Source: a bacterium
GTDB lineage: Bacteria; Patescibacteriota; Patescibacteriia; S139-126
Direction: 5' to 3'
Length of the DNA stretch: 57,450 nucleotides
Assembly: GCA_030666865.1 (NCBI GenBank)
Contig: DAOUWZ010000004.1
Location: forward strand, 1-57,450
Of this stretch, positions 4,790 through 56,184 are shown piece after piece. How positions within the stretch are numbered: position 1 is the stretch's first letter; every line of letters starts with the position of its first letter. The notes beneath the pieces were generated by a model. That model had not been told where the DNA came from and searched no databases. It worked only from the letters and a program-made list of their open reading frames with translations. The position numbers and the translations under genes are program-made.

Positions 4790-5533
4790 ATGCCAATAAT
4801 TAAAAAAGAAATCAAAGCAAAATTAGATCTAAATACATTTTTATATATAGCAATTGGTTTGCTATTTATTTCAATAATTATTTTTGTCGTTACCATCAGC
4901 TCAAAACAATTATTTTTAACACCAACTGATAATCTAAAGCAAAAGGCAGAGCAATTAGCTGCTGGAGCGCAAGTCCCATATAGTGATCCTTTAATTATTA
5001 GCACAAAACTAGAATACCCTAAAGTATTATCAAACGATCCAGTACTGGGAAAGGTCAATGCCAAAGTGACTATTTTTGAATATTCTGATTTTTTGTGCGA
5101 ACCCTGCCGGGAGCAGAGTGAAATATTGAAAAAAGTTTTGCAAAAATATTCATCCGACGAAGTTCGTTTAGTTTGGAAAGGTACTGCTCAAAATGCTCAA
5201 GGTTTTTTAGCCGAGCAAGCCGGATATTGCGCGGCAGATCAGGGAAAATTTTGGGAATGGCATGATAATATTTTTGCTGATCAAAATAATGTGAATATGT
5301 TGTATTATTTTGATTTAGCAACTAAGTTTGGACTTAATGTGGATATGTTTGAGAATTGTTTAAGTTCAGATGCGGTTCATCAGAAAGTTTTATTGGTAAA
5401 TGGCGAGGCGATTAATCTTGGGATAGACGCTTTGCCTTATTTTTATATTGATAATACCCCTTATTATGGTGTGCTTAGCGAAGATGATTTGAGTGTTATT
5501 ATTGATTCAGTCATTTCGTCTTTTAATGAATAA
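4790..5533 (+). CDS. DsbA-family thiol:disulfide oxidoreductase, membrane-anchored
   Basis: N-terminal TM helix. Thioredoxin-fold CxxC motif in FEYSDFLCEPC. DsbA-like C-terminal region. Confidence 0.75.
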   Translation: MPIIKKEIKAKLDLNTFLYIAIGLLFISIIIFVVTISSKQLFLTPTDNLKQKAEQLAAGAQVPYSDPLIISTKLEYPKVLSNDPVLGKVNAKVTIFEYSDFLCEPCREQSEILKKVLQKYSSDEVRLVWKGTAQNAQGFLAEQAGYCAADQGKFWEWHDNIFADQNNVNMLYYFDLATKFGLNVDMFENCLSSDAVHQKVLLVNGEAINLGIDALPYFYIDNTPYYGVLSEDDLSVIIDSVISSFNE

Positions 5534-5541
5534 TTGTAATT

Positions 5542-6786: not shown

Positions 6787-6904
6787 CTGAAATAAATCTA
6801 AAAATGGTGAATAAAATTTATGAGCACAATAACAGTGTATAAAAATTTTATTTTAGTAAAAATAAAAGCTACGGGATATATACAAATTATTATTAGTTTA
6901 GCAA

Positions 6905-8274: not shown

Positions 8275-8931
8275 ATGAGGAGGGAGATTTTTTATCAAGG
8301 AGGGTTTTATCATATTTATAACCGCGGCGTTGATAAGCGGACAGTTTTTTGTGATGATAAAGATTATGAGAGATTTTTGTTGGGGTTAAATGTGTTTAAT
8401 CAAGTTGAATCGGTGGGTAATTTACGCGATTATATGAGGTTTCAGACATCCGATGTCCGGAGCTCCGGACATCGGATGTCTGAAAGAAAGCAACTAGTTG
8501 AGATAATCGTTTATTGTTTACTACCAAATCATTTTCATTTTATTTTGAAACAAATAGAGAAAGATGGGGTAAGTAAATTTATGCAAAAATTATCGAATGG
8601 TTATACTAAATATTTCAACACTAAATACCACCGTTCAGGAGTATTATTCCAAGGGAAATACAAAGTCAAGCATATTGATTCAGATGAATATTTACTTTGG
8701 CTATCTGCTTATATCAACGCCAATGCCGAAATACATAAAATAAAACCAGCTAATAAACATTGCTGGTCAAGCTACAGTAATTATGTTTTTGGTAAATCTG
8801 ATTTAGTGCCAGTGAATACCAGAATAGTGATGAGTAATTTTAGTAGTGGGGAAAATTATCAGAATTATTTGGATAAGATTATTCCGGTGTGGCAGGAACG
8901 AAAAGAGATAAAAGAATATATTATTGAATAA
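8275..8931 (+). CDS. IS200/IS605-type Y1 HUH transposase-like protein (REP-associated tyrosine transposase, RAYT-like)
   Basis: YHIYNRG N-terminal strand, HUH motif LLPNHFHFIL, GYTKYFN..RSG.LFQGKYK, and a catalytic-Tyr helix YINANAEIH. Single-copy gene without IS ends. Confidence 0.75.
   Translation: MRREIFYQGGFYHIYNRGVDKRTVFCDDKDYERFLLGLNVFNQVESVGNLRDYMRFQTSDVRSSGHRMSERKQLVEIIVYCLLPNHFHFILKQIEKDGVSKFMQKLSNGYTKYFNTKYHRSGVLFQGKYKVKHIDSDEYLLWLSAYINANAEIHKIKPANKHCWSSYSNYVFGKSDLVPVNTRIVMSNFSSGENYQNYLDKIIPVWQERKEIKEYIIE
8440..8485. repeat. P2-family perfect palindrome (46 bp) lying in frame inside the RAYT-like CDS
   Basis: TTTCAGACATCCGATGTCCGGAG|CTCCGGACATCGGATGTCTGAAA encodes FQTSDVRSSGHRMSE. 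Its 40-bp core is identical to the one at 20206-20245. Confidence 0.9.
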
Positions 8932-12237: not shown

Positions 12238-12364
12238 ACAATTATTATATCCTGAAATTTGATAAATAAAAATAACCTAATTAGTTGGTAGGTTTGAGAT
12301 GACGGTTTTTAGTTAGGGTTATTATTTATTTAATATTACAAAATAATGGTGTCTCCAGCAGGAA

Positions 12365-12388
12365 TCCCTGCCTACCGGCAGGCAGGGA
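12365..12388. repeat. P1-family GC palindrome (variant, 1 mismatch)
   Basis: TCCCTGCCTACCGGCAGGCAGGGA, just downstream of tRNA-Arg. Confidence 0.85.
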
Positions 12389-12420
12389 ACCTTAATTAAG
12401 AATTGTAAATTTTATTAGTT

Positions 12421-20198: not shown

Positions 20199-20252
20199 AA
20201 TAAAACAGACATCCGATGTCCGGAGCTCCGGACATCGGATGTCTGTTTTATT
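20199..20252. repeat. P2-family perfect palindrome (54 bp). Likely bidirectional terminator after lemA.
   Basis: AAATAAAACAGACATCCGATGTCCGGAG|CTCCGGACATCGGATGTCTGTTTTATTT. A/T runs flank both sides. Confidence 0.9.
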
Positions 20253-21526: not shown

Positions 21527-21555
21527 TTGCACTTTCATTGCTTTTATTGTATAAT
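21527..21555 (+). promoter_or_regulatory. Sigma70 promoter with extended -10 (TTGCAC-N17-TATAAT, TG at -14)
   Basis: TTGCAC at 21527-21532 and TATAAT at 21550-21555. The TTG start of the long ORF-track model is actually the -35 hexamer. Confidence 0.6.
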
Positions 21556-21604
21556 TTATACAGCATTTAGTCAATTTATATATAATTATATTAATAATTT
21601 TACT

Positions 21605-24142
21605 ATGTTTTTTCGTAACATTACCCTAACAATTTTTAGTCTGTTATTATTTTTAATAATAGCTATTCCTACGCAAACAAATGCCCAAGCTTGTTGGGAT
21701 GGAACTTGGACTCAGCCTACTTGCGATCCCATGGTTGATCCAGGTGGTTGTTTGGTAAGTCCGCCGTTATTTGCTAACGCTGATTGTGATCAAGAAACAG
21801 GTAATATTAAAATAAGTGATCAAAGTGATACAGCCGCTAAATCTGAATGGGTTGATTTGCAGCCAGGAATTATTCAGCTTGGCGATGTTCAGGATGGTTG
21901 GAATTTGCCAGATCCAAATGGAGCTATTGAAGCGTATGGTCCAATTTTAGTAGGTAATTGGACTGCTATGCCTTTAGCTGCTCGGTTTGAAGGCGGTGTC
22001 GCGGCTTTTGATTTGTATGCTAATGATGAATTAAGGGTTGATGATAATGCCTATTTTTATGGAAATATTGAATTGAAAGGTAATGGAGTTTTGATTCCAA
22101 ATGGTAGGGACACAGTAATTCTAAATGTAGAAAATGCTGGCGGCGGCGGTGATACTGACACTTTACTTCGTCTAACTGCTGATAATGGAGAAATCGGAAA
22201 TTTTTTATATATGGATGGTTATTCAAATAATGATATTTATGTAGATTATTTAGGATATTTTAATGCAGATGGTGATTTTCAAGTTAGGATTGATGCTGAT
22301 AATAATAGTGGAAATAGTTTTCGTATAAATAATGGCGATAATAATACTATTTTAAATTTAAGCGAAACAGGATATTTGAATGTTGAAAGTGATATCTCAT
22401 CTACCAATGGTGATATTTCCGCGCCAAATGGCAAAATTTCCGGGGCGCAAGTTCAAGGTGATTTTATAGAAACTACTACTGGAAATTCTTGTTCAGGCGC
22501 AGGTTCTGACAAAATGCTATATTATAATCAAAGTTTAAATGGTTGGTTTTGCCGTGATGTTGGTAGTGGTTCAGTTGGTGGACAGGATCTTTTGTCAGTA
22601 TTGCAAGAAGGGTCTGATGCTTCTGCTTTTGCCGGACCAACAAGTATTGGCGGCAAGCTAACTATAGTTGAAAATGTTAATAACGGAAGTGTTGATGTAA
22701 ATATTAATAATAGTTATGAAGTGGCCAGTGGTAGTAATAACGAATCAGCCAGACTAAATCTTCAATTGAACAAAAGCGGGTCTGGTAATGGTCCGAGAAA
22801 TGCAGTTAGTATCGTAGCTGGAAAAGATGGTTCTTGGTGGACAGCAGATACGGTTGATTCTAATATGGCAATAAATTTATATAGAGATAATTCAGCTTTT
22901 GAAGCTTTGAGGATTGATTCTGATGGCGATGTCGGCATTGGCACTACTAATCCTAGTTATAGATTACAAGTTGATGATGGTAATGCTTTTATCAAAGGTC
23001 CAGATGGGTTTAATGCTGCCGGAGAAGAAGCAGCTCTTTACTTAGGCTCAGCTCCGGAGCATTATATCAAAGCAGTTTATGGCGACGGTTTGCGAATCGG
23101 CACCTACCAGGCTGCTGATGCTTTGAATATTGAACAGACTACTGGTAATGTGGGTATTAAAGTAACTAATCCTAATGCGCAATTGCATGTTTGTAATACT
23201 AGTAACGCTCAGTTTATAGCGATGTTTAATAGTGATGTTGACGCTAGTGTTAGGATTGATGCAGATGATATTGACAGTGATTCAAATTTATGGTTTACCA
23301 ATACTGATGATGGCGATTATTCTTATTTGATTGGTCGGCAAGATGATGGTAAGTTTCGTATAGGAGTTTTAGCAAGCGGGATGCCGAATTATGATACTGA
23401 TCCCACTAGATTATTAACAGTTGATCGGTATGGTAATCTTGAAGTTGAGGGAGATATTTTTGCGCCAAATTTAACCAATGTAAGATGGCGTTCTGGAACT
23501 AGTGGAGCAGTAGCTGATTATGATGAAGATGGAAAATTTACACTTAATGAAATTGATGTTAATTTATTAGATGCTGAGACAGTAAAAACGTCACAAATCA
23601 TTCATTACGAACAATCAACAGGCAATAAAATATTTTATGGGTCGTCTAATTGTGAAAGTTGTGAGATTGCTAGAAAAGATTGTCAGGATAATAGAGGCGC
23701 TTGGGAAAAATTAGCTCAATTTTTTTCTGTGTCTAGTGTTAACGCCGCAGCAATTCGGTATAGTGGTTGTTTAACAGTTGACGCAGCTTCTTGTGCTTCT
23801 CAAAGCTGTGATGCGACTGAAGTTTCTCATCAGGATAGTACTATAAATTATGATGATTGCGGTGGAACTCCGCAGAGTGTAAGTTATGTTTATTCTCGTA
23901 CATGTAAAAGTTGTCCGGCAGGGGATGCAGATATTACCAAAATGGAGTTTTATTATGATGAAGGGGGTACCAGCAGAAATACAGTGGAAGTTCATGGTGA
24001 TTTAGTAGCTCCTGGAAATTATCACAATAATTGTGAGACTATATCAGCTGGTGGATTAAATCACTATGCAGAGTGTCCTGAAGGCAAATATATTACGACT
24101 GTTGATTTTGATGATGAAGAAGTAACTTGTTGTAGACTCTAG
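21605..24142 (+). CDS. Large secreted tail-fibre-like protein with a Cys-rich C-terminal domain
   Basis: The ATG at 21605 gives a signal peptide (LLLFLIIAIPTQTNAQA). Two 'GxVGIGTTNPxxxLxV'-type motifs (DGDVGIGTTNPSYRLQV, TGNVGIKVTNPNAQLHV) are typical of tail-fibre/endosialidase-chaperone-type proteins. The last ~200 aa are Cys-rich. Confidence 0.55.
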   Translation: MFFRNITLTIFSLLLFLIIAIPTQTNAQACWDGTWTQPTCDPMVDPGGCLVSPPLFANADCDQETGNIKISDQSDTAAKSEWVDLQPGIIQLGDVQDGWNLPDPNGAIEAYGPILVGNWTAMPLAARFEGGVAAFDLYANDELRVDDNAYFYGNIELKGNGVLIPNGRDTVILNVENAGGGGDTDTLLRLTADNGEIGNFLYMDGYSNNDIYVDYLGYFNADGDFQVRIDADNNSGNSFRINNGDNNTILNLSETGYLNVESDISSTNGDISAPNGKISGAQVQGDFIETTTGNSCSGAGSDKMLYYNQSLNGWFCRDVGSGSVGGQDLLSVLQEGSDASAFAGPTSIGGKLTIVENVNNGSVDVNINNSYEVASGSNNESARLNLQLNKSGSGNGPRNAVSIVAGKDGSWWTADTVDSNMAINLYRDNSAFEALRIDSDGDVGIGTTNPSYRLQVDDGNAFIKGPDGFNAAGEEAALYLGSAPEHYIKAVYGDGLRIGTYQAADALNIEQTTGNVGIKVTNPNAQLHVCNTSNAQFIAMFNSDVDASVRIDADDIDSDSNLWFTNTDDGDYSYLIGRQDDGKFRIGVLASGMPNYDTDPTRLLTVDRYGNLEVEGDIFAPNLTNVRWRSGTSGAVADYDEDGKFTLNEIDVNLLDAETVKTSQIIHYEQSTGNKIFYGSSNCESCEIARKDCQDNRGAWEKLAQFFSVSSVNAAAIRYSGCLTVDAASCASQSCDATEVSHQDSTINYDDCGGTPQSVSYVYSRTCKSCPAGDADITKMEFYYDEGGTSRNTVEVHGDLVAPGNYHNNCETISAGGLNHYAECPEGKYITTVDFDDEEVTCCRL

Positions 24143-24212: not shown

Positions 24213-24257
24213 ACAAATTTTAAATTATACCTGCCTGCCGGCAGGCAGGAATCCTAA
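24213..24257 (+). repeat. 45-bp direct repeat (left copy), containing a P1 palindrome at 24230-24249
   Basis: ACAAATTTTAAATTATACCTGCCTGCCGGCAGGCAGGAATCCTAA is identical to 25575-25619. Confidence 0.9.
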
Positions 24258-24324
24258 ACAAGTATTAATATCAAAATCCAAAATTCAAAACTGATTTTTA
24301 TATTAACTAAGCTTGAGGGAAACT

Positions 24325-24453: not shown

Positions 24454-25407
24454 CTATTTTATTAAAATCATTTTTTTGACCTGGCTATATCCAGATTGAG
24501 TTGTGAGTTTATAAAAATAGGTTCCGGATGACAAGTTTTGGCCATCAAATGAATAGTTGTAGCTGCCAATAGACAGTTTTTCATCAACCAGAGTAGCCAC
24601 AGTTTGACCTAAGATATTATAAACGGTCAGATTTACGAAATCGGCTTTGTTGATAGAAAAAACGATGTTAGTCGCCGGATTAAACGGATTAGGATAATTC
24701 TGATTGAGTATAAATGATTCTGGAATGCCTTTATAAAAAGGTGATATATGAGAAACTAGATCATCGCCTCCCATATAATCTAAGACACAAGAATCTTTTT
24801 GAGAATGGAATCGAATTTGATCACAGATATGTGATATAGTATCGGAATTACCACCATCTTGGTAAATGAACAGACTGTCAATATGGGTGATTACTGGAAG
24901 TGGATCATTGCCATTTAGATTTTTCCAGTTATGAAAATAAATCGTAGTTGTGTCATCTTGCTCCATTGATTGTCCATCAATAAAACCGTAGCTACCAGAG
25001 TAGTACATTTCACCTTTGTGGCGTATCCAGATTTGGAAAGAGTTTGACGGTGAGTCTGTTATCATTTTCAAATCTGCATAAAGCATTAAATTTGTCATCC
25101 AATCAGGAATTATTGCTTCAGTACTGTCGGTATAGTCTTTGTAATAGAATACATATTCAGATCCAGGTGTTGGGTCGTGAGTGAATTTTAAAGCTTCACT
25201 TTCGCTACCACTTAGACCACAGCACGGATTTATATAGGCCGAGTCGGGTAGCTGAATATTATACTCAAACCATGGAGTTGTTTCTGGGTAACATGGGACA
25301 TACCCCAGTATTGGTTGAAGATTTGTTGAAGTTGTTTGCGCAAAAGTTGTTCCCACCAATCCTGCGAAGAGCAGGATTACGCTTAAAAAAGTTAGATATT
25401 TTTTCAT
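24454..25407 (-). CDS. Secreted protein with a T9SS-type (Por_Secre_tail) C-terminal sorting domain
   Basis: Signal peptide ending TFAQ. C-terminal NYPNPFNPATNIVFSI...VYNILGQTVATLVDE...SGTYFYKLT...KKMILIK matches the type-A T9SS CTD pattern. SD GGGAGGA. Confidence 0.7.
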   Translation of the reverse strand: MKKYLTFLSVILLFAGLVGTTFAQTTSTNLQPILGYVPCYPETTPWFEYNIQLPDSAYINPCCGLSGSESEALKFTHDPTPGSEYVFYYKDYTDSTEAIIPDWMTNLMLYADLKMITDSPSNSFQIWIRHKGEMYYSGSYGFIDGQSMEQDDTTTIYFHNWKNLNGNDPLPVITHIDSLFIYQDGGNSDTISHICDQIRFHSQKDSCVLDYMGGDDLVSHISPFYKGIPESFILNQNYPNPFNPATNIVFSINKADFVNLTVYNILGQTVATLVDEKLSIGSYNYSFDGQNLSSGTYFYKLTTQSGYSQVKKMILIK

Positions 25408-25505: not shown

Positions 25506-25574
25506 GTCTAGGGAGTGGATATGCTGTGAATATTAGTATTTAGAAGTTAGTAGATAGGAGGAGGTAAATAAATT

Positions 25575-25619
25575 ACAAATTTTAAATTATACCTGCCTGC
25601 CGGCAGGCAGGAATCCTAA
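25575..25619 (+). repeat. 45-bp direct repeat (right copy), containing a P1 palindrome at 25592-25611
   Basis: Identical to 24213-24257. Confidence 0.9.
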
Positions 25620-25791
25620 GATCCTGGATAGCCCTACGCTTCGCTTCATTGCTTCTGGGATGACAGTAGAGAGGAAGGAATGACAAAAAGAGCACAAAAT
25701 TTTATTCTTCTATTTTATCACCCCCTATTAATTATACTTGATACCAGTTTATTTTAGCGTTATATTAAAAATATAAGTAATTACTAAACAA

Positions 25792-26658
25792 ATGATTAAT
25801 AATGAAAAAAGGCTTCGTGTTCTTGTTAAAGAAGATAAAATTATCCAGTTGACTTATTTGAAAATAGCTTCTGTTGAAAAAATTGAAGCTGAATTCCAGG
25901 GATTAATATTTATTAAAAAAATTGGATTTAATGCTCCTGCTATAATTAAGCGTACAAAAGATTCTCTTTCCACAGAATATATTAGAGGAATATCAGCATT
26001 CACTGCTTTAGAGATACTAAGTAGAAAAAAGAAAGTTGATTTGGTATATAATATTTTAGATGAACTTTGTCGCGGGGTAAAAATTTTTCATAGTAAATGT
26101 AAATTTTTAAAAGTAAATAAATATATACCATATCAAGTTGATGTTAAAGTGCCGCATATAACGACGATGTTGAAAGAATCTAATATTAGACTAGCAAAAC
26201 AGCTTGAGAATATTACACCTCAGATTGTAGAATACTACAAGAAAGCAAATATTCCTTTTCGAGATGCTACTCCTAAAAATTATATTATGAGCGATGTTAG
26301 TAAAGATAGTGTAGATGTATTAAATGATAGTAATTATCGAAATAAGTTGACATACATAGATGCGTCTTCTATGAACGAATTAACTTTTTTACCAGATGAT
26401 TTTATAAGTATTTTATTTCATTATATGATTGAAGATGATATCAGATTAGAGCTTCTAAAAAAATATGAGATTGATATGAATTCAAAAGAATTTATTATTA
26501 GCGCTTTTGTCAGATTTGGTAGGTTCTGGGTAAGAAGACAATATTATAAAAAGTATCTCCCAGAGATTTTTAGGAAAAGATATACTTATGAAAAAATTGG
26601 TCATTATAATAAAATAATGATGGAATATACAAAAAAAGTCATTGAATTATTAAATTAA
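25792..26658 (+). CDS. Atypical protein-kinase-like-fold protein (putative small-molecule kinase)
   Basis: STEYIRG hinge-like motif, a catalytic-loop-like FRDATPKN (D-x4-N), and a YIDAS (DFG-like) motif. No canonical HxD. Confidence 0.45.
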   Translation: MINNEKRLRVLVKEDKIIQLTYLKIASVEKIEAEFQGLIFIKKIGFNAPAIIKRTKDSLSTEYIRGISAFTALEILSRKKKVDLVYNILDELCRGVKIFHSKCKFLKVNKYIPYQVDVKVPHITTMLKESNIRLAKQLENITPQIVEYYKKANIPFRDATPKNYIMSDVSKDSVDVLNDSNYRNKLTYIDASSMNELTFLPDDFISILFHYMIEDDIRLELLKKYEIDMNSKEFIISAFVRFGRFWVRRQYYKKYLPEIFRKRYTYEKIGHYNKIMMEYTKKVIELLN

Positions 26659-26661
26659 ATT

Positions 26662-27069
26662 ATGAATTGTAGTTTTCATCACATAGCATTAAATGTTTCT
26701 AATTTAACAAAGTCAATAGAATTTTATACAAAAATTTTGGGTTTTAAAAAAGGTTTATCATTTGAAAGTTCAAATAAAGTTACTAAAATACAGTATTTGG
26801 GATTAAATGATATTAATTTAGAGTTGACTTCTAGATCAATCAAGCTTCATTTGTTTAAAAGAGATGCTAGCAGAGTCATGATTAAACATATAGCTTTTAA
26901 AGTAGAAAATATTAAAACTGTTTATAAACAGTTAGTAGATAAGGTTGATTTTATTTCAGAGATTAAAGTTAAAGTAATAGACAGTGGTATTATAAAGTAT
27001 TTTTTTATAAAAGATCCTGATAGAATTGAAATAGAATTTGTAGAAATAAATCTAAAAGAAGATGAATAA
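26662..27069 (+). CDS. VOC (glyoxalase/bleomycin-resistance/dioxygenase) family protein
   Basis: HHIALNVSNLTKSIEFYTKILGF, HIAFKVENI and DPDRIEIEF. Confidence 0.7.
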   Translation: MNCSFHHIALNVSNLTKSIEFYTKILGFKKGLSFESSNKVTKIQYLGLNDINLELTSRSIKLHLFKRDASRVMIKHIAFKVENIKTVYKQLVDKVDFISEIKVKVIDSGIIKYFFIKDPDRIEIEFVEINLKEDE

Positions 27070-28210
27070 AATAATTAATCAGTGGCAGTTTTTCAAACAT
27101 AGAGAAAAATATTTAAAATTGGGACAGCCATTATATTCTCGATATGCGAAAGATTGCTTCTTATTTTCTAGTGAAAATAAAAAATATATTGATTTTTTAA
27201 TGAGCTGGGGTTCTATTGTTTTAGGACATGCAGATAAGGGAATTGAACAGGTGATAAAATCAAAAATTAGATATGGCTTGAATTTTAATAATCATTTATT
27301 TATAGAAGATGAGTTGGCAGAAATTTTTTCTAGTTTTTTTAGTTTCAAAAGTAAGTTAGCTTTTTTTAATAACGGTTCCGATGCTACTACTTCAGCTATC
27401 CGGATCGCTAGAGCATTTACAAAAAAGCAATTTGTTATTTTTAGCGGTTATCATGGTTGGCATGGATGGGCACAACCAAATACTAATGGTATACTTAAAG
27501 AAGAAAGAGTAAATTCTAGTAAATTTAGATTAGTTGGACATGAAAAAATATTAAATTTTATTAATAAAAATAATAAAAAAATAGCATGTATAATTTTGGA
27601 AATTCCCATAAGATCAAAAGATGCTTTAAAAGTAGTAAAAGAAATAAAGAAATTATCCAAACAATATAAATTTTTACTTATTTATGATGAAATAAAATCA
27701 GGATTGCGTTTAGGTTTTACCCCGGGAATTAGTTTATATGGGATTGAACCAGATATATTGGTTTATGGTAAGGCTTTTGGGGGAGGATTGCCATTTTCAG
27801 CTCTTATTGTAAAAGAAAAAGTTATAAAAAATCTTAATAATCTTAATATGATGGCTACTTTTTGGGGGTCTCCATTATCTCTCTATGTAGCAAAATATAT
27901 CATTAGAGAATTTAAAATGAAAGATTTAGCAAAAAATTTAACAAATATTTCAGAATATTTTGTTTTAAATTTTAATAGAATATTTAAGGATGCGGGAATT
28001 GGAGTTTATTTGGATGAATATTATTCAATGCCAAAATTAATTTTTAAAGAAAATGAGAGAGTGATGAATAAATTTTATAAATTGTCTTTTGAAAACGGTC
28101 TTTATATTCGTCCAAATCATTGTTGGTTTTTATCTTTATCTCACAAAAAAGATATTTGTGATCTGGCTTTGAAAAAATTTAGTAGAATAGTAAAAGTTTT
28201 AAGAAAGTAA
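27062..28210 (+). CDS. Class-III PLP aminotransferase, glutamate-1-semialdehyde-aminomutase-like
   Basis: SWGSIVLGHAD, NNGSDATTSAIRIARAFT, IYDEIKSGLR and GKAFGGGLP (PLP lysine) parallel HemL motifs. Overlaps the upstream gene by 8 nt. Confidence 0.7.
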   Translation: MNKIINQWQFFKHREKYLKLGQPLYSRYAKDCFLFSSENKKYIDFLMSWGSIVLGHADKGIEQVIKSKIRYGLNFNNHLFIEDELAEIFSSFFSFKSKLAFFNNGSDATTSAIRIARAFTKKQFVIFSGYHGWHGWAQPNTNGILKEERVNSSKFRLVGHEKILNFINKNNKKIACIILEIPIRSKDALKVVKEIKKLSKQYKFLLIYDEIKSGLRLGFTPGISLYGIEPDILVYGKAFGGGLPFSALIVKEKVIKNLNNLNMMATFWGSPLSLYVAKYIIREFKMKDLAKNLTNISEYFVLNFNRIFKDAGIGVYLDEYYSMPKLIFKENERVMNKFYKLSFENGLYIRPNHCWFLSLSHKKDICDLALKKFSRIVKVLRK

Positions 28211-28220
28211 ATTTTATTTT

Positions 28221-29795
28221 ATGAAAATAGCAGTTATAGCTCCTTATTCCAGACCTTTTGATGATAGTGATAGTGAAGGGAGTGGACAAAATATATTTAT
28301 TCGAGAAAGTTCTTTGGCTTTGATTAACACTGGACATTCTGTTACTATTTTTCGAAGAAAATCCAGATCTGATGATAAAAATGTTATTAAGAAAAAAGAT
28401 TTGCCAGGCGAGATTACTATCAAAGCTGGTCCAGCGCGAAGATTAAATAGAATAGAAACATATAAGGCTTGTTTAGAGGTTGATATTTTAAAATATATTG
28501 ATATTGCTGAATTTGATTTTTTTATTGCTCATTATTGGATAAGTGAAGCTTGGGTGTCTCAAATTTCAAAAATAACCACAAAGAGAATTTTTTATTTTTC
28601 TCATTCTGTATTTTTAAATGAATATAAATCTATTAGGGAGCAACGAATTAAACTTGCCACTGAAATACGATTTAAAGATAGTGTTTATTGGTGTTCTAAT
28701 ACAAAAAAGGATTACGCTTATATGCGAAGTTTTTTTTCTAAAGAAAAAGTTTTATATATTCCCCCAGGGATTGGGGATTGTAAGGTTGGAGCAAAAAAAG
28801 ATAATAAAGAAATTCTTTTTGTGGGTAGAAAAAATTACGCTAAGGGTTTTGATCTTTTTTGTAAATTGGCGAATGATTTTCCTCAGTATAAATTTGAATC
28901 AATAGGTAGGTTAGAAACAACAGAAGTGAAGATAGATAATTTAACCCAAACTAATTTTTTGTCTGTAAATGATTTGTCTCAAAAAATAAAGAATGCTCGT
29001 TTAGTTATTTGTCCGAGTCGGTATGAGTATTTTGGTCTTGTGCCTTTAATGTCAATAAGTCTGGGAACTCCAGTCATCGCATCAACAGTCGGTGGACATG
29101 TTGAAGTTATTAATAGTAACAAAACAGGGTTACTTTTTAGTCCCAATAGTTATAAGTCTTTATTTAATGTATTTAGTAACTTTTTAGATAAAAATATAAA
29201 AATAAATAATAAAGAAATATTTGCATTGAAAAAGAAATTTAATTGGAATAATTTTGTTGCCAAAATTATTACACAAGTCCAAAAACCAAAAATAGTTTAT
29301 AAAGGGAGTGTTGTTTCAGTTAGTATTTCGCCGAAAGAAATAAATAAAAAATTAATTAATTATGAAAGGGTTAAATTACCTGCATCTGTACATATAATAC
29401 CGATAGATAAAAATGGAAAAATAATATTGCTAAGAGAAAAGAAAATACATGATAGGCAATACAAAACAAGAGTTATAGCAGGTATTAAAGATAAAGATGA
29501 AACTGTGCAAGAGGCAGCTGCTAGAGAATTATTAGAAGAAACTGGTTTGCATGCCAAAAAGTGGAGTTTATTAGTAAAAATTAGTAAAAATAATGTTATT
29601 AATGATAATCGTTATTATTACATCGCTCGTGAGTTAACACAGTATCAACCTAAACCAGATGTTACTGAGAATATTAAAGGGATTGTTAAAGTTGATATTA
29701 AAGAGTTAAAAAAGTTATGGGATAAAGGAGTTTTTGGAAAGTTAGAAACATCAGTCGCTATTGAAAAATTATTTGGTTTTTATAAAAAAATATAA
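28221..29795 (+). CDS. GT4-family glycosyltransferase fused to a C-terminal ADP-ribose-pyrophosphatase-type Nudix domain
   Basis: GT-B/GT4 C-terminal motif YEYFGLVPLMSISLGTPVIASTVGGHVEVI..KTGLLF. Nudix box GIKDKDETVQEAAARELLEETGL. Confidence 0.7.
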   Translation: MKIAVIAPYSRPFDDSDSEGSGQNIFIRESSLALINTGHSVTIFRRKSRSDDKNVIKKKDLPGEITIKAGPARRLNRIETYKACLEVDILKYIDIAEFDFFIAHYWISEAWVSQISKITTKRIFYFSHSVFLNEYKSIREQRIKLATEIRFKDSVYWCSNTKKDYAYMRSFFSKEKVLYIPPGIGDCKVGAKKDNKEILFVGRKNYAKGFDLFCKLANDFPQYKFESIGRLETTEVKIDNLTQTNFLSVNDLSQKIKNARLVICPSRYEYFGLVPLMSISLGTPVIASTVGGHVEVINSNKTGLLFSPNSYKSLFNVFSNFLDKNIKINNKEIFALKKKFNWNNFVAKIITQVQKPKIVYKGSVVSVSISPKEINKKLINYERVKLPASVHIIPIDKNGKIILLREKKIHDRQYKTRVIAGIKDKDETVQEAAARELLEETGLHAKKWSLLVKISKNNVINDNRYYYIARELTQYQPKPDVTENIKGIVKVDIKELKKLWDKGVFGKLETSVAIEKLFGFYKKI

Positions 29796-29843
29796 AATAA
29801 TTATAAAAATATAATCGTTATTGTTATTTTAGGAGGTGGTATT

Positions 29844-30368
29844 ATGTTTTTTAAAAATTTAGCTTTACCAATGAGAGCTCAACCTTTTCATATTGGTCAT
29901 GCTCGGTATATTAAGCAATTTAGTAAAATGTGTAACAGAGGTTTAATATTTTTATCTAAAGAATATGATTTAGAGGAAAATCCTTTTTTATACAAGACAA
30001 GGGAATTTTGGATTAATAAATTTTTGTCTGTTGAAAATATAAATAATATTTTAATTGCTAAGAGAGAGAAAAAGCTAGTTGATATATCAGGTAAATATGA
30101 AGAATATGTTAATTGTTTTGACACTACTGACTTTGTTGTTATCACCACTAACGAAACAGATAATATTTATAAATTGACAGGACTTCAAACATTCAATCAT
30201 CATGATCCTGATTTTGTAAAAGAAATTTGGGGAAAGAGTTTAGGACGCATTAAGTTATTTTCTACTGGAAGAATTATCAGAGAAAGATTAAAGAAAGATT
30301 TGGATTGTTCAGACTATTTAACACCCTTGGTATATAAAGAGGCTAGAATGGTTATGCAAAACATTTAA
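29844..30368 (+). CDS. HxGH nucleotidyltransferase (cytidylyltransferase superfamily, NadM-like)
   Basis: MRAQPFHIGH (RFQPxHxGH-type) and STGRIIR (ISSTxIR-type). Strong SD AGGAGGTG. Confidence 0.65.
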   Translation: MFFKNLALPMRAQPFHIGHARYIKQFSKMCNRGLIFLSKEYDLEENPFLYKTREFWINKFLSVENINNILIAKREKKLVDISGKYEEYVNCFDTTDFVVITTNETDNIYKLTGLQTFNHHDPDFVKEIWGKSLGRIKLFSTGRIIRERLKKDLDCSDYLTPLVYKEARMVMQNI

Positions 30369-30400
30369 TAACCCGTGAACACCCGGGTTATTTTTTATTT
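30369..30400 (+). terminator. Intrinsic terminator closing the five-gene island
   Basis: TAACCCG-loop-CGGGTTA followed by TTTTTTATTTT. Confidence 0.75.
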
Positions 30401-30458
30401 TATATTCTCCGATTGCTGTTGGATGGCTAAAGTGTTTTTTTGTATAATAATTATCTAC

Positions 30459-30516
30459 ATTAACATACCTACATCCGATGTCGGGATTTCCCGACATCGG
30501 ATGTAGGTATGTTAAT
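30459..30516. repeat. P2-family palindrome (58 bp, variant)
   Basis: ATTAACATACCTACATCCGATGTCGGGA-tt-TCCCGACATCGGATGTAGGTATGTTAAT. It shares the ACATCCGATGTCSGGA core with 8440-8485 and 20199-20252. Confidence 0.9.
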
Positions 30517-30730: not shown

Positions 30731-30858
30731 ATTAGTTTTTAGGTTATACCTGCCTGCCGGCAGGCAGGGGTTTTAGTTATTAGAAGATGAGAATTATTAA
30801 ATCTACAACCTGAAAACTAGCAACTAACAACTATAACCTAAAAACTAACAACTATTCT
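30731..30858 (+). repeat. SR composite repeat, copy A (P1 palindrome at 30749-30768), ending at the rpsL ATG
   Basis: A 55-nt block (30734-30788) is identical to 31290-31344. A 31-nt block (30824-30854) is identical to 31373-31403. Confidence 0.9.
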
Positions 30859-31287: not shown

Positions 31288-31407
31288 TCAGTTTTTAGGT
31301 TATACCTGCCTGCCGGCAGGCAGGGGTTTTAGTTATTAGAAGATTAAAGTTATTTAACCTACAACCTAAAGACTAACAACTATAACCTAAAAACTAACAA
31401 CTAATAT
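31288..31407 (+). repeat. SR composite repeat, copy B (P1 palindrome at 31305-31324), filling the rpsL-rpsG spacer
   Basis: See copy A. Confidence 0.9.
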
Positions 31408-31887: not shown

Positions 31888-32008
31888 GTCAGGTTATACC
31901 TACCTGCCGGCAGGCAGGGGTTTTAGTTATTGAAAGACTGAGAATTATTAAACCTACAATCTAAAAATTATTAACTAACAACTACAACCTAAAAACTAAC
32001 AACTAACT
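31888..32008 (+). repeat. SR composite repeat, copy C (P1 variant at 31899-31918, 1 mismatch), filling the rpsG-fusA spacer
   Basis: Same architecture as copies A and B. Confidence 0.85.
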
Positions 32009-34090: not shown

Positions 34091-34183
34091 GTTACAGTTG
34101 TCAGGTTATAGGTTTTAGGAATTATTTAATTTTCTAATACCTATGAACCAAAACCTACAACCTAATAACTAACAACTAAATTT
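34091..34183 (+). repeat. SR composite repeat, copy D (lacks the P1 palindrome: CAGGTTATA|GGTTTTAG)
   Basis: Same arms and the same G-poor right half (AACCTACAACCTAATAACTAACAACTAA) as copies A-C. Confidence 0.75.
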
Positions 34184-39583: not shown

Positions 39584-39609
39584 ACTAGTATATTGTATAT
39601 AGTAGATAG

Positions 39610-39629
39610 CCTGCCTGCCGGCAGGCAGG
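39610..39629. repeat. P1-family 20-bp GC palindrome in the rplB-rpsS spacer
   Basis: CCTGCCTGCCGGCAGGCAGG, exact. Confidence 0.95.
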
Positions 39630-39713
39630 TATGTAGCAAAAATATGAACAGTGAAGACAAACTAATCTTATATACTACCTATATACTATATACTAAATAC
39701 TAAATACAAAAAT

Positions 39714-45158: not shown

Positions 45159-45665
45159 ATGAATAAAGATAACAGAAAAAAGAATACTACAAGATCAAGC
45201 AATAGGCCAGTAGACGAGTTTGAGCAAGAGATAATAGATTTAGCTCGGGTTACTAGGGTAATGGCTGGAGGTAAAAGAATGAGATTTAGAGCTTGTGTTG
45301 TTATTGGTGATCATAAAGGTAAAATAGGGTATGCGGTCGCCAAAGGAGCTGACGTAGCTATTGCTATCAACAAGGCAGTAACTAAAGCTAAGAAAAATAT
45401 GTTGGAGTTAAATTTTTATAATGACACCATCCAACATGAAGTAAGATCCAAGTTTAAAGCAGCTGAAATTTTGATAAAGCCAGCTCCAACTGGTACAGGT
45501 ATTATTGCGGGTGGAGCGGTTCGTAAAGTTTTGGAATTGACCGGTGTACCAAATATTGTTGCAAAAATATTGGGATCAAATAATAAAATAAATAATGTTA
45601 AAGCAACTTTCCGGGCTCTGTCTAGTTTAATAACTGAATCAGGAAATAGAAAATTAAAATCATAA
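45159..45665 (+). CDS. rpsE: 30S ribosomal protein S5
   Basis: VTRVMAGGKRMRFRACVVIGDHKGKIGYAVAKG. Confidence 0.97.
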   Translation: MNKDNRKKNTTRSSNRPVDEFEQEIIDLARVTRVMAGGKRMRFRACVVIGDHKGKIGYAVAKGADVAIAINKAVTKAKKNMLELNFYNDTIQHEVRSKFKAAEILIKPAPTGTGIIAGGAVRKVLELTGVPNIVAKILGSNNKINNVKATFRALSSLITESGNRKLKS

Positions 45666-45679
45666 AGTAACAGAATAGT

Positions 45680-46147
45680 ATGTTGAGTTTAAATAATCTA
45701 CAATCAAGTAAGAAGAAAAAAACCAAACGTGTTGGTCGTGGTAGTGCTAGTAGTGGTGATTATTCTGGAAAAGGAATGAAGGGTCAAAAATCCAGAAGCG
45801 GCGTTTCTGGTTTGAAAAAAAGAGGAATGAAATCTTGGTTAATGAAGGTGCCAAAATCAAGAGGTTTTACTAGTCCTCATAAACCAAAAGAAAATGTTAA
45901 TCTTGATGACTTAAATAATAATTTTTTAGATGGCAATGAAGTAACTCCATTTATTTTGCAAACCAAAGGTTTGGTTGACGATTATCGTAGGGGAGTTAAA
46001 ATATTAGGTGACGGGAAGTTAAAAAAGAAATTAATAATAAAAGTTCACGGGGTGAGCGCTTCAGCTAAAGAAGCAATCACTAAAGCTGGCGGCAGTATTG
46101 AATTAATAAAAAAAGTAAAACCAGTTAAACCTCCGTACAAAGCCTAA
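45680..46147 (+). CDS. rplO: 50S ribosomal protein L15
   Basis: KRVGRGSASSGDYSGKGMKGQKSRSG. It follows rpsE directly, with no L30 gene between them. Confidence 0.95.
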   Translation: MLSLNNLQSSKKKKTKRVGRGSASSGDYSGKGMKGQKSRSGVSGLKKRGMKSWLMKVPKSRGFTSPHKPKENVNLDDLNNNFLDGNEVTPFILQTKGLVDDYRRGVKILGDGKLKKKLIIKVHGVSASAKEAITKAGGSIELIKKVKPVKPPYKA

Positions 46148-49206: not shown

Positions 49207-49297
49207 GATTGTAGTTTTTAGATAGTGGTAGTTTATTTACCTCGCCATTAAACAAGTAATCACTAAAAATTACAAACTAATACCTAAAAACTAGTTT

Positions 49298-53051: not shown

Positions 53052-53056
53052 AGATT

Positions 53057-56041: not shown

Positions 56042-56184
56042 ATTTTGATTGTTTCAGGATTCGAACGGGCAGGAGCGAGTATTGAGCAGAGCGAAATAAA
56101 CGAGCGACGACCAAAGCGAGTAAGCGTAGCTTTGGGCGCTGCCCAGTACAACGAAGTTGAGTGAAGCGAAACGAGGCGGAAATC

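What the first reader, a model, noticed from the sequence alone, without database searches (positions are those of the whole stretch)
25792..30368. A five-gene AT-rich island upstream of rpsL encodes an unassigned kinase / aminotransferase / nucleotidyltransferase / GT4-Nudix / VOC pathway
The five co-directional genes are separated by gaps of 3-48 nt or an 8-nt overlap. They are visibly more AT-rich than their surroundings.

The left boundary is a 45-bp repeat with its P1 palindrome (25575-25619). The right boundary is a strong terminator plus a P2 palindrome (30369-30516).

Gene content:
- An atypical protein-kinase-fold protein (RDATPKN, YIDAS).
- A VOC/glyoxalase-fold protein.
- A HemL-like class-III PLP aminotransferase.
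- A GT4 glycosyltransferase fused to an ADP-ribose-pyrophosphatase-type Nudix.
- A NadM/HldE-like HxGH nucleotidyltransferase.

The enzymology suggests a sequence of phosphorylate, nucleotidylate (possibly ADP-activate), aminate and transfer. That would be a route to a nucleotide-activated amino sugar or amino polyol used to decorate a glycan or lipid. The Nudix and VOC domains might handle turnover or detoxification.

I cannot match this combination to a characterised pathway. For a CPR organism with minimal biosynthesis, it is a conspicuous acquisition.
Basis: inference. Interest (0 to 1): 0.72.

Follow-up and report, generated by a model that had tools for sequence, protein, structure and literature searches.

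The report
Rare conserved ADP-linked glycoside operon
Five neighbouring genes upstream of rpsL form a rare operon whose core (a small-molecule kinase, an adenylyltransferase and a sugar transferase fused to an ADP-sugar hydrolase) recurs as a unit in candidate-phyla-radiation (CPR) bacteria and unidentified metagenome contigs, so it is a real but uncharacterised sugar-metabolism pathway, not a chance cluster or a known capsule locus.

Summary
**Observation: confirmed.**
- Five co-directional, tightly packed ORFs lie at 25792-30368. They have a promoter-like site and a terminator-like hairpin.
- Their GC is 26.7%, against 33.3% for the rest of the window.
- The flanking palindromes are generic intergenic repeats, not island borders.

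**Domain calls: correct.** The genes encode:
- an APH/ChoK-fold kinase;
- a VOC protein with an intact H-E-H-E metal site;
- a HemL-like class-III aminotransferase;
- a GT4 closest to sucrose-phosphate synthase and MshA, fused to an ADP-ribose-type Nudix;
- a NadM-like HxGH nucleotidyltransferase.

**New here.**
- The set co-occurs in about 10 independent lineages at 30-50% identity.
- The invariant core is kinase + GT4 + Nudix + nucleotidyltransferase. The aminotransferase, with or without VOC (once also an RmlB-like dehydratase), is an optional branch.
- Named carriers are CPR genomes (Paceibacterota, Kaiserbacteria).
- The family is very rare: about 25 clusters among 1.8 billion representative proteins.
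- It is absent from the phage, plasmid and defence collections.
- It lacks membrane or polymer-assembly genes.

**Best reading (about 0.4).** A soluble pathway builds an ADP-linked small molecule. An SPS/MshA-type GT4 glycosylates it and the fused Nudix cleaves the ADP linkage. The substrate is unknown.

**Recent acquisition is not shown.** Low GC is a trait of this cluster in every host examined.

The parts
25738..25766 (+). Promoter-like site (TTGATA-17-TATATT), 25 nt upstream of the first gene
   Evidence: Consensus scan, 10 of 12 matches. It is a pattern match only: 47 such sites were found in the region against 36 expected by chance.
25792..26658 (+). Small-molecule kinase of the APH/choline-kinase (eukaryotic-like kinase) fold, from a new and rare family. 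Catalytic loop FRDATPKN is at 26257-26280, the Mg-binding YIDAS at 26353-26367, and an invariant DD at 26395-26400.
   Evidence: No Pfam, NCBIfam or PDB sequence hit. The AF2 model has pLDDT 91.1. Best Foldseek matches in PDB are APH(3')-Ia, APH(2''), glucosamine kinase 6hwk, LicA and ChoK, at probability 1.0 and TM about 0.5. Invariant residues come from alignment A1. An exhaustive HMMER search found 25 representative clusters at E<1e-30 among 1.84 billion proteins.
26662..27069 (+). Single-domain VOC (glyoxalase I / methylmalonyl-CoA epimerase type) metalloenzyme; optional member of the cluster
   Evidence: PF00903 scores 49.5 bits against a cut-off of 20.6. All NCBIfam equivalogs fall far below their cut-offs. 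The H7/E54/H76/E123-125 ligand positions are conserved in 4 homologues.
27062..28210 (+). Class-III (HemL-like) PLP aminotransferase; optional member of the cluster. PLP-lysine motif YGKAFGGG is at 27764-27787.
   Evidence: PF00202 scores 126.5 bits. TIGR00713 hemL scores 181.7 bits against a cut-off of 527.3, so this is not HemL. PDB hits are GSAM, the aminopentol aminotransferase FumI and GenB-type C-6' aminotransferases. The lysine and the DEIK motif are conserved in 6 homologues.
28221..29285 (+). Retaining GT4 glycosyltransferase domain of the SPS/MshA type (about aa 1-355). The EX7E region is at 29025-29051.
   Evidence: PF00534 scores 76.8 bits. The best PDB sequence hit is 6kih (sucrose-phosphate synthase Tll1590) at 1e-18 over aa 3-322, followed by MshA. 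Foldseek top hits are 6kih (TMt 0.73) and MshA 3c4q (0.71-0.72). The N-domain motifs APYSRP..EGSGxN..IRES and AHYWIS are shared with SPS and MshA.
29376..29708 (+). ADP-ribose/ADP-sugar-pyrophosphatase-type Nudix domain fused to the GT4 (about aa 386-496). The intact Nudix box GX5EX7REUXEEXGU is at 29481-29549.
   Evidence: PF00293 scores 51.6 bits. NudE NF008736 gives E 3.8e-13 but scores below its cut-off. PDB hits are NudF 5c7q, ADPR pyrophosphatases 8wv3 and 9jax, and NudE 1vhg. The box is intact in all 10 fused homologues aligned.
29844..30368 (+). NadM-like HxGH nucleotidyltransferase, a probable adenylyltransferase. PFHIGH is at 29883-29900 and the ISxT-equivalent GRIIRERL at 30267-30290.
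   Evidence: Only sub-threshold hits to PF01467 and TIGR00125. A 7-sequence profile (A2) hits MJ0541 NMN adenylyltransferase at E 3.6e-5 over positions 11-161, then NaMNAT, the NadM-Nudix proteins 2qjt and 2qjo, and PPAT. No cytidylyltransferases appear.
30367..30392 (+). Terminator-like hairpin plus T-run, overlapping the stop codon of the last gene
   Evidence: 9-bp stem with 4 GC pairs, followed by TTTTTATTTTA.
25570..25619 (.). Copy of a multi-copy intergenic repeat holding palindrome P1; not specific to the cluster
   Evidence: Families D3 (8 copies) and D4 (5 copies) across the window.
30459..30516 (.). Perfect 28+28 palindrome P2, one of 3 related copies in the window; not specific to the cluster
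   Evidence: I15 and D6. The other copies are at 8443-8482 and 20206-20245.

Best explanation
The locus is one operon encoding a self-contained, soluble pathway.

**Core, found in every complete copy**
1. An APH/choline-kinase-type kinase phosphorylates a hydroxyl of a scavenged small molecule X. X is unknown; candidates are a sugar, a pentose or a polyol.
2. A NadM-type HxGH nucleotidyltransferase joins AMP to that phosphate, giving ADP-X.
3. A retaining GT4 of the sucrose-phosphate-synthase/MshA type adds a sugar from a common NDP-sugar to this phosphate-bearing acceptor.
4. The ADP-ribose-pyrophosphatase-type Nudix fused to the GT4 cleaves the pyrophosphate. This releases AMP and a glycosyl-X-phosphate. 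It is analogous to the phosphatase step fused to or paired with SPS, TPS and MshA, and to removal of a nucleotide 'handle' in phosphonate pathways.

**Optional branch in the window's five-gene version**
A VOC metal-dependent isomerase/epimerase and a class-III aminotransferase convert a carbonyl on the intermediate to an amine, so the product is an amino derivative.

**Shown:** the folds and families, intact catalytic motifs, operon structure, conserved co-occurrence, the core/accessory split, rarity, and the soluble nature of the proteins.

**Inferred:** the order of steps, ADP as the nucleotide, acceptor versus donor roles, and what the Nudix cleaves.
For: **Co-occurrence as a unit.** All loci below carry homologues at 30-56% identity.
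- kinase - VOC - aminotransferase - GT-Nudix - nucleotidyltransferase: window, L001.
- Same five genes in a different order: L008.
- VOC - aminotransferase - GT, with a free-standing Nudix, kinase and nucleotidyltransferase: L035/36.
- kinase - aminotransferase - GT-Nudix - nucleotidyltransferase: L038/39.
- kinase - GT-Nudix - nucleotidyltransferase: L007/14, L009-12, L015, L017.

**Co-evolution.** The three core proteins show parallel identity matrices.

**ADP theme.**
- The nucleotidyltransferase profile matches only adenylyltransferases: NadM, NaMNAT and PPAT.
- The Nudix matches only ADP-ribose/ADP-sugar hydrolases, and its box is intact.

**GT4 relatives.** The closest by both sequence and fold are SPS and MshA, whose acceptors carry a phosphate.

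**Kinase.**
- Structural neighbours are non-anomeric kinases: APH, ChoK, LicA and glucosamine kinase.
- The nearest sequence outgroup is a LicC-like nucleotidyltransferase-kinase fusion next to LicD in 5 of 5 loci. That is the same logic: phosphorylate, then nucleotidylate an alcohol.

**Soluble, self-contained module.**
- No hydrophobic segments.
- No glycan-assembly genes; the flanks in CPR genomes are housekeeping genes.

**Intact catalytic residues** in all five proteins.

**Precedent for a nucleotide handle.** Cytidylylated intermediates are tailored in the fosfomycin, FR-900098 and PTT pathways, and the argolaphos cluster carries a Nudix (PMC8976061). Removal of the handle by the Nudix FrbI is from my own memory.
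Against: - No substrate is identified, and no enzyme reaches the cut-off of any characterised equivalog.
- Adenylating X-P only to remove AMP again is costly, and this step rests on analogy alone.
- HxGH enzymes can also make a true sugar donor (HldE makes ADP-heptose). APH-fold kinases can be anomeric (NahK, AmgK, Mak, MtnK; established knowledge). The donor model is therefore not excluded.
- In L035/36 the Nudix is a separate, MutT-like gene only weakly similar to the fused domain, so the GT-Nudix coupling may be looser than the fusion suggests.
- The GT-Nudix model is only moderate (pLDDT 74, unstructured linker). It says nothing about channelling between the two domains.
- In L013 an RmlB-like 4,6-dehydratase abuts the kinase, which is the classic logic of an NDP-sugar donor.
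Confidence: 0.4

Rival explanations
1. Sugar-salvage donor pathway; this is essentially the first reader's model. The kinase is an anomeric sugar kinase. The NadM-like enzyme makes an ADP-sugar, as HldE does for heptose. In five-gene versions the VOC and aminotransferase (and an RmlB-like dehydratase where present) convert it to an ADP-amino(deoxy)sugar. The GT4 transfers that sugar to an acceptor. The Nudix trims excess ADP-sugar or removes the ADP product.
For: - The order kinase, nucleotidyltransferase, glycosyltransferase is the standard salvage logic.
- L013 has a dTDP-glucose-4,6-dehydratase-like gene (TIGR01181, E 1.6e-73) 10 nt upstream of kinase-VOC-aminotransferase.
- More distant kinase relatives sit in glycan loci or next to a DUF89 sugar-phosphate phosphatase.
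- ADP-glucose-using relatives (GlgM, bacterial sucrose synthase) are among the GT4 hits.
- An aminotransferase acting on dTDP-4-keto-6-deoxyglucose exists (AcbV, PMC8234114). Its class-III membership is from my own memory.
Against: - NahK, MtnK and maltokinase are not among the top 50 structural neighbours of the kinase.
- The nearest kinase outgroup feeds LicD-type phospho-alcohol transfer, not glycosyl transfer.
- Nearly all HxGH nucleotidyltransferases act on non-anomeric phosphates (established knowledge).
- Fusing a hydrolase of the donor to the enzyme that consumes the donor is counter-intuitive.
- No acceptor-side genes for a glycan or lipid are present.
Confidence: 0.27
2. NAD / ADP-ribose metabolism. 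The NadM-like enzyme and the ADPR-pyrophosphatase-type Nudix are the two halves of the known bifunctional NadM-Nudix enzyme, here split. With the kinase they salvage a ribosyl compound into a dinucleotide, or recycle ADP-ribose. The GT4 glycosylates an ADP-ribose-like species.
For: - The best PDB matches of the nucleotidyltransferase are NMN adenylyltransferases, including the NadM-Nudix proteins 2qjt and 2qjo.
- The Nudix matches ADPR pyrophosphatases.
- A second kinase outgroup is linked to SIR2_2 and to IF-2B-type ribose-phosphate isomerase domains.
- CPR bacteria depend on salvage (established knowledge).
Against: - NadM equivalog scores are far below cut-off: TIGR01527 scores 15.6 bits against 181.2.
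- The Nudix lacks the proline about 16 residues after the box that marks classical ADPRases (read from the sequence; the rule is from my own memory).
- Known nicotinamide-riboside kinases are P-loop enzymes, not APH-fold.
- A GT4, an aminotransferase and a VOC have no role in known NAD salvage.
Confidence: 0.08
3. Xenobiotic or antibiotic modification island. An APH-like kinase, a nucleotidyltransferase, a glycosyltransferase and a VOC (bleomycin/fosfomycin-resistance fold) each inactivate a toxic compound.
For: The top structural neighbours of the kinase are aminoglycoside phosphotransferases. The VOC gives weak hits to FosA and FosB models.
Against: - Known resistance nucleotidyltransferases and glycosyltransferases belong to other families (Pol-beta-type ANT; GT1).
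- All resistance models score far below their cut-offs.
- Strict co-inheritance and gene fusion argue for one pathway, not parallel detoxifiers.
- No plasmid or phage carriage was found.
Confidence: 0.04
4. Chance juxtaposition of unrelated genes, or an annotation artefact.
For: None beyond the lack of a known pathway.
Against: The same genes are adjacent in about 10 independent lineages, despite only 30-50% identity and different flanks.
Confidence: 0.01

Closest known systems
Sucrose-phosphate synthase / phosphatase (SPS-SPP) and MshA / MshA2, the first steps of sucrose and mycothiol synthesis
   Same: The GT4 domain is closest to these by sequence (6kih at 1e-18; MshA at 3e-12) and by fold (TMt 0.71-0.73). 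It shares their N-domain motifs. In both known systems a retaining GT4 glycosylates a phosphate-bearing small acceptor, and a hydrolase, often fused, then removes the phosphate.
   Different: Equivalog scores are far below cut-off: MshA 63.9 bits against 462.5, SPS N-domain 24.9 against 576. The fused hydrolase is a Nudix rather than a HAD phosphatase. A dedicated kinase and an adenylyltransferase are part of the unit. The second Glu of EX7E is replaced in most copies, but not in L009 or L015.
HldE / RfaE (heptose kinase plus HxGH adenylyltransferase, giving ADP-heptose)
   Same: A kinase is coupled to an HxGH-superfamily adenylyltransferase, giving an ADP-linked sugar for a glycosyltransferase.
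   Different: The HldE kinase belongs to the ribokinase family, not the APH fold. The two activities are separate genes here. The nucleotidyltransferase profile matches NadM and PPAT rather than HldE. The downstream transferase is a GT4 rather than a GT9.
Bifunctional NadM-Nudix (NMN adenylyltransferase / ADP-ribose pyrophosphatase; PDB 2qjo, 2qjt)
   Same: A NadM-type HxGH enzyme is genetically coupled to an ADPR-type Nudix.
   Different: Here the Nudix is fused to a GT4, not to NadM. NadM equivalog scores are not met. The kinase, GT4 and aminotransferase have no counterpart in the known enzyme.
LicA / LicC / LicD phosphocholine-type decoration pathway
   Same: An APH/ChoK-fold kinase is followed by nucleotidylation of the phospho-alcohol. 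The nearest sequence outgroup of the kinase is a LicC-like-kinase fusion beside LicD. LicA is among the structural neighbours.
   Different: The nucleotidyltransferase is HxGH/NadM-type, not LicC-type. No LicD is present. A GT4-Nudix takes the place of the phospho-alcohol transferase.
Nucleotide-handle pathways: the CMP-linked intermediates of FR-900098, fosfomycin and PTT
   Same: A nucleotidyltransferase tags a small phosphorylated molecule, and tailoring enzymes (including a PLP enzyme) act on the tagged form (PMC8976061). A Nudix removes the tag; the FrbI role is from my own memory.
   Different: Those pathways use CMP and phosphonates, occur in actinomycete antibiotic clusters and have no glycosyltransferase. 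The analogy is mechanistic only.
Acarbose dTDP-4-amino-4,6-dideoxyglucose branch (AcbA / AcbB / AcbV)
   Same: The sequence nucleotidyltransferase, 4,6-dehydratase, aminotransferase and transfer (PMC8234114) resembles the L013 variant, which has an RmlB-like gene.
   Different: The window has no dehydratase. The nucleotidyltransferase family differs. That AcbV is a class-III enzyme was not verified here.

Membership tests
GT4 glycosyltransferases (Glycos_transf_1) | Pfam PF00534 above gathering score; GT-B fold | tested here: met
   76.8 bits against a cut-off of 26.4. Foldseek top 50 hits are all GT-B GT4/GT5 enzymes.
GT4 glycosyltransferases (Glycos_transf_1) | Canonical EX7E motif | tested here: inconclusive
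   The first Glu is invariant. The second Glu is present in L009 and L015 but replaced by Met, Leu, Ile or Val in the window and 9 others.
MshA (D-inositol-3-phosphate glycosyltransferase) | NCBIfam equivalog TIGR03449 at or above 462.5 bits | tested here: not met
   63.9 bits.
Sucrose-phosphate synthase | NCBIfam TIGR02472 at or above 576 bits | tested here: not met
   24.9 bits, although SPS Tll1590 is the best PDB match.
Nudix hydrolase superfamily | Pfam PF00293 above cut-off and an intact GX5EX7REUXEEXGU box | tested here: met
   51.6 bits against 21.1. The box is at aa 421-443 and is conserved in all fused homologues.
ADP-ribose pyrophosphatase (NudF / NudE) | Equivalog score (NF008736 at or above 169 bits) | tested here: not met
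   49.4 bits. The nearest PDB relatives are nevertheless ADPRases.
NadM NMN adenylyltransferase | Equivalog TIGR01527 at or above 181.2 bits | tested here: not met
   15.6 bits.
HxGH nucleotidyltransferase superfamily | HxGH motif and a C-terminal ISxTxxR-like motif on a Rossmann-like fold | tested here: met
   PMRAQPFHxGH and GRIIRERL are conserved in 7 sequences. The profile matches MJ0541 NadM over its full length at E 3.6e-5.
APH / choline-kinase (eukaryotic-like small-molecule kinase) fold | Bilobal kinase fold with a DxxxxN catalytic loop and a Mg-binding Asp | tested here: met
   Model pLDDT 91. Foldseek probability 1.0 to APH, ChoK and LicA. D158, N163 and D190 are invariant. There is no hit to Pfam PF01636.
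HemL (glutamate-1-semialdehyde aminomutase) | Equivalog TIGR00713 at or above 527.3 bits | tested here: not met
   181.7 bits. Class-III membership (PF00202, 126.5 bits) is met.
Glyoxalase I | Equivalog TIGR00068 at or above 120 bits, or NF050074 at or above 165 bits | tested here: not met
   33.3 and 44.1 bits. VOC superfamily membership (PF00903) is met and the metal ligands are conserved.
Capsule / LPS / teichoic-acid modification locus | Flippase, polymerase, polyprenyl-phosphate transferase or export genes in or beside the cluster | tested here: not met
   None in the window or in 10 related loci. The flanks are housekeeping genes. All five proteins are soluble.
Recently acquired genomic island | Integrase, tRNA target, specific direct repeats, or a near-identical copy in a distant host | tested here: not met
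   No tRNA lies adjacent and no integrase is present. The flanking repeats are generic. The closest copy is only 43-56% identical. Low GC relative to the flanks is seen in all 9 hosts.
Anti-phage defence / conflict system | Match to PADLOC models or carriage on phages | tested here: not met
   No PADLOC hit and no viral contigs. The PF20706 'GT4-conflict' hit covers only the generic aa 249-300.

The most novel reading that the evidence does not exclude
CPR bacteria, and a few other bacteria whose taxonomy could not be determined here, make a previously unknown soluble glycoside by an ADP-'handle' route. This product might be a compatible solute, a mycothiol-like redox buffer precursor or a cofactor part. 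A scavenged pentose or polyol is phosphorylated and adenylated to an ADP-ribose-like carrier. It is optionally aminated while tagged, then glycosylated by an SPS/MshA-type GT4. The fused Nudix finally releases it. This would be the first glycoside pathway in which a Nudix plays the role of the product phosphatase, and the first use of a NadM-type enzyme outside cofactor synthesis.
Probability: 0.15. Interest if true: 0.75.

Novelty: new variant of a known kind. Interest (0 to 1): 0.55.

Why it matters
CPR bacteria have very small genomes and few recognisable biosynthetic pathways. A conserved operon spending three to five genes on one small-molecule product is therefore likely to matter to their biology, for example in stress protection, redox buffering or interaction with a host.

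The enzymes are unusual replacements for the standard ones: an APH-fold kinase instead of GHMP or ribokinase, a NadM-type instead of a GlmU/RmlA-type nucleotidyltransferase, and a Nudix instead of a HAD hydrolase. Characterising them would widen the known substrate range of four large superfamilies. It would also define two families that currently have no Pfam model (the kinase and the nucleotidyltransferase).

The three-gene core is small and soluble, so it can be tested directly in E. coli.

Tried and rejected
1. **Alternative genetic code in L008.** I first read the in-frame stops at conserved Trp positions as UGA=Trp (code 4). Inspecting the codons showed both are TAG, and TAG also ends the aminotransferase gene. 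There is also a frameshift in an A8 run in VOC. L008 is therefore a decaying or error-ridden copy, not a recoded one.
2. **Loss of the second Glu of EX7E as a family signature for an unusual donor.** Rejected, because L009 and L015 keep it.
3. **The PF20706 'GT4-conflict' hit as a lead to a defence system.** It covers only the generic nucleotide-binding stretch. PADLOC, phage and plasmid searches were all empty.
4. **The palindromes as island borders.** Rejected, because they are multi-copy.
5. **The free-standing Nudix of L035 as a simple split of the fused domain.** The similarity is only weak and generic, so it is left open.
6. **Structure prediction of the nucleotidyltransferase.** A profile search against PDB was used instead.
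7. **Finding more copies.** A word-based homologue search with the nucleotidyltransferase found one relative. A metagenome scan found four loci.
8. **Literature.** Searches for this gene combination found nothing relevant.
9. **Taxonomy.** That of the window itself and of L001-L014 could not be determined. Cluster look-ups gave no names, and the window's own genome is not among the GTDB representatives.

Full report
**1. The observation**

All are on the + strand. They are separated by 3, 10 and 48 nt, with one 8-nt overlap.

A promoter-like site lies at 25738-25766. A hairpin plus T-run at 30367-30392 overlaps the last stop codon. The five genes therefore look like one transcription unit.

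The cluster is 26.7% GC against 33.3% for the rest of the window. The five genes average GC 0.262 and GC3 0.173, while 31 other genes average GC 0.343 (sd 0.028) and GC3 0.251.

Both flanking elements exist but are not specific to the locus.
- Palindrome P1 (CCTGCCTGCCGGCAGGCAGG) occurs 8 times in the window. Copies lie between rpsL, rpsG and fusA, and again between the cluster and rpsL at 30749-30768.
- P2 occurs 3 times.
- Both are genome-wide intergenic repeats, not island borders.

**2. The proteins**

| Gene | Family evidence |
|---|---|
| VOC (135 aa) | PF00903, 49.5 bits. The H-E-H-E metal ligands typical of glyoxalase I and methylmalonyl-CoA epimerase are conserved in four homologues. 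|
| Aminotransferase (382 aa) | PF00202, 126.5 bits. PLP-lysine motif YGKAFGGG is conserved. HemL model scores 181.7 bits against a cut-off of 527.3, so it is HemL-like but not HemL. PDB relatives include GSAM, FumI and GenB-type 6'-aminotransferases. |
| Kinase (288 aa) | No hit in Pfam, NCBIfam or PDB sequences. See below. |
| GT4-Nudix (524 aa) | PF00534 (76.8 bits) and PF00293 (51.6 bits). See below. |
| Nucleotidyltransferase (174 aa) | Only sub-threshold Pfam and NCBIfam hits. See below. |

*Kinase.* A model built on nine homologues has pLDDT 91. It matches aminoglycoside phosphotransferases, glucosamine kinase, LicA and choline kinases at probability 1.0 and TM about 0.5. The catalytic loop FRDATPKN, the Mg-binding Asp in (Y/W)ID, and a DD pair are invariant.

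*GT4 domain.* It is closest to sucrose-phosphate synthase Tll1590 (1e-18 over aa 3-322) and to MshA. It shares their N-domain motifs. The same two lead the fold search, with TMt 0.71-0.73.

*Nudix domain.* It has a perfect Nudix box. Its PDB relatives are ADP-ribose or ADP-compound hydrolases.

*Nucleotidyltransferase.* It carries PMRAQPFHxGH and GRIIRERL motifs. A family profile matches the archaeal NadM enzyme MJ0541 across its length (E 3.6e-5). It then matches other NMN/NaMN adenylyltransferases, NadM-Nudix proteins and PPAT, but no cytidylyltransferase.

None of the five has a hydrophobic segment. No equivalog model for a characterised enzyme is reached.

**3. Co-occurrence**

The GT4-Nudix fusion and the kinase have very few relatives.
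- Word-based searches of 5.8 billion proteins found four and eight relatives.
- An exhaustive HMMER search of 1.84 billion representatives found 25 kinase clusters at E<1e-30.

Wherever DNA around a close relative could be read, the partners are adjacent.

| Arrangement | Loci |
|---|---|
| kinase - VOC - aminotransferase - GT-Nudix - nucleotidyltransferase | window, L001 |
| kinase - GT-Nudix - VOC - aminotransferase - nucleotidyltransferase | L008 |
| VOC - aminotransferase - GT, then a free-standing Nudix and the kinase on the other strand, then the nucleotidyltransferase | L035/36 |
| kinase - aminotransferase - GT-Nudix - nucleotidyltransferase | L038/39 |
| kinase - GT-Nudix - nucleotidyltransferase only | L007/14, L009-12, L015, L017 |
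| RmlB-like dehydratase - kinase - VOC - aminotransferase (contig ends) | L013 |

Three points follow.
- The invariant core is kinase + GT4 + Nudix + nucleotidyltransferase. The aminotransferase, with or without VOC, is an optional branch.
- The three core proteins diverge in parallel, at 29-45% identity between lineages. This is what co-inheritance of a unit would produce.
- One exception is a lone, N-terminally short kinase in a Saccharimonadales contig (L016).

**4. Hosts and mobility**

The only named carriers are CPR metagenome-assembled genomes: Paceibacterota (L015), Kaiserbacteria (L017) and Saccharimonadales (L016). The window itself lacks L30 between S5 and L15. That fits a CPR origin but does not prove it.

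- No copy was found in viral contigs, plasmids or PADLOC models.
- In all nine genomes tested the cluster is 2-10 GC points below its flanks, and its GC follows that of the host. Low GC is a property of this gene set everywhere, not a mark of a recent arrival in this genome.
- The cluster is not fixed in place. L009 and L015 are 73-77% identical, yet one sits upstream of rpsL (as in the window) and the other between ArgRS and IleRS.
- It also decays. IS elements have removed the kinase, VOC and part of the aminotransferase in L002-L004. L008 has two TGG-to-TAG nonsense changes and a frameshift.

**5. Mechanism**

Two themes stand out.

*ADP.* The nucleotidyltransferase resembles only adenylyltransferases, and the Nudix resembles only ADP-X hydrolases.

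*Phosphate-bearing small acceptors.* The GT4 is of the SPS/MshA type. In those systems a paired or fused hydrolase processes the product.

The kinase evidence points the same way.
- Its structural neighbours phosphorylate non-anomeric hydroxyls.
- Its nearest sequence outgroup is a LicC-like nucleotidyltransferase-kinase fusion that sits beside LicD in five of five loci. That is again 'phosphorylate, then nucleotidylate an alcohol'.

I therefore favour this route, at about 0.4:
1. X is phosphorylated to X-P.
2. X-P is adenylated to ADP-X.
3. ADP-X is optionally aminated by VOC and the aminotransferase.
4. The GT4 glycosylates it.
5. The Nudix cleaves it to glycosyl-X-P plus AMP.

Tailoring of nucleotide-tagged intermediates is documented for phosphonate antibiotics (PMC8976061).

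In it the kinase and nucleotidyltransferase make an ADP-sugar donor, as HldE does. The RmlB-like gene in L013 and the sugar contexts of distant kinase relatives favour this reading.

A NAD/ADP-ribose reading (about 0.08) draws on the NadM-Nudix precedent and on a second kinase outgroup linked to SIR2 and IF-2B domains. A resistance island and chance adjacency are unlikely.

The substrate X cannot be named from sequence.

**6. Comparison with known systems, and verdict**

The locus works like a hybrid of four known things:
- an SPS/MshA-type glycoside-phosphate synthase with its hydrolase;
- a kinase plus HxGH adenylyltransferase pair such as HldE;
- the NadM-Nudix couple;
- the LicA/LicC activation logic.

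It fails the equivalog test for each of them. It also lacks every hallmark of a capsule, LPS or teichoic-acid locus. Literature searches found no description of this combination.

I rate it a new variant of a known kind. It is a real, rare, conserved and uncharacterised pathway, with two protein families that have no Pfam model. Interest is moderate to high (0.55).

Noticed in passing
window 30795-30855, 31337-31404, 31946-32006, 34133-34179, 49248-49294; inverted copies at 53040-53115: An A/C-rich repeat of about 47 nt (..CTAACAACTATAACCTAAAAACTAACAACTA..) lies directly upstream of the start codons of rpsL, rpsG, fusA and the next gene (families D1/D5, I1-I3). It may be a shared leader or translation signal of ribosomal-protein genes.
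   Followed up: no
window, 8 copies of P1 (e.g. 12364-12395, 24227-24258, 25589-25620, 30746-30777, 31302-31333, 31896-31927, 39607-39638, 56182-56213); P2 at 8443-8482, 20206-20245, 30468-30507: Two families of GC-rich perfect palindromes punctuate the intergenic regions of this AT-rich genome, in the manner of REP elements. Several score as terminator-like.
   Followed up: partly
window 24454-25407 (-): A 317-aa secreted protein has a type-IX-secretion C-terminal sorting domain (Por_Secre_tail, E 1.3e-11). This is unexpected if the organism is a CPR bacterium without an outer membrane. The neighbouring 871-aa protein (21527-24142) has no Pfam hit.
   Followed up: no
window 45159-46147: Ribosomal protein S5 is followed after 14 nt by L15, with no L30 gene between them. 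That is a trait typical of CPR bacteria.
   Followed up: partly
L008 1149-4283: This copy of the cluster has TAG nonsense codons at two conserved Trp positions (GT codon 157, aminotransferase codon 136) and a frameshift in an A8 run in VOC. It is either a decaying copy or a product of assembly errors.
   Followed up: yes
L001-L004 about 4900-8000; L001 5313-6456: Population variants of one genome show IS200/IS605 and IS256 insertions that removed the kinase, VOC and the 5' part of the aminotransferase. In L001 the kinase gene carries a partial tandem duplication of its 3' third. An aminoacetone-oxidase-family flavoenzyme (TIGR00275, 397 bits) follows the cluster in all four.
   Followed up: partly
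L026 7110-10522; L030 7233-10824; L018 7155-10856; L019 7032-11043; L027 7254-10809: The nearest outgroup of the kinase is a fusion of a LicC-like nucleotidyltransferase and the kinase, with or without a PvcA-like domain. It is followed by an unknown protein of about 300 aa and by LicD. It occurs in Pseudidiomarina taiwanensis, Thiocapsa imhoffii, Alteromonadaceae, Armatimonadota and Pseudomonas. This appears to be an uncharacterised glycan-decoration module; two of the five records are named strains (P. taiwanensis PIT1, T. imhoffii DSM 21303).
   Followed up: partly
L022 6128-8990; protein P0056: A SIR2_2-IF-2B fusion protein lies directly upstream of a 380-aa kinase relative in a Saprospiraceae genome. 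Metallophos-IF-2B-kinase fusions of about 1,050 aa also exist. This links the kinase clade to ribose-phosphate or NAD-derived metabolism.
   Followed up: no
L015 7949-11488: The isoleucyl-tRNA synthetase of a Paceibacterota genome carries an inserted histidine-phosphatase (His_Phos_1) domain, E 2.7e-29.
   Followed up: no
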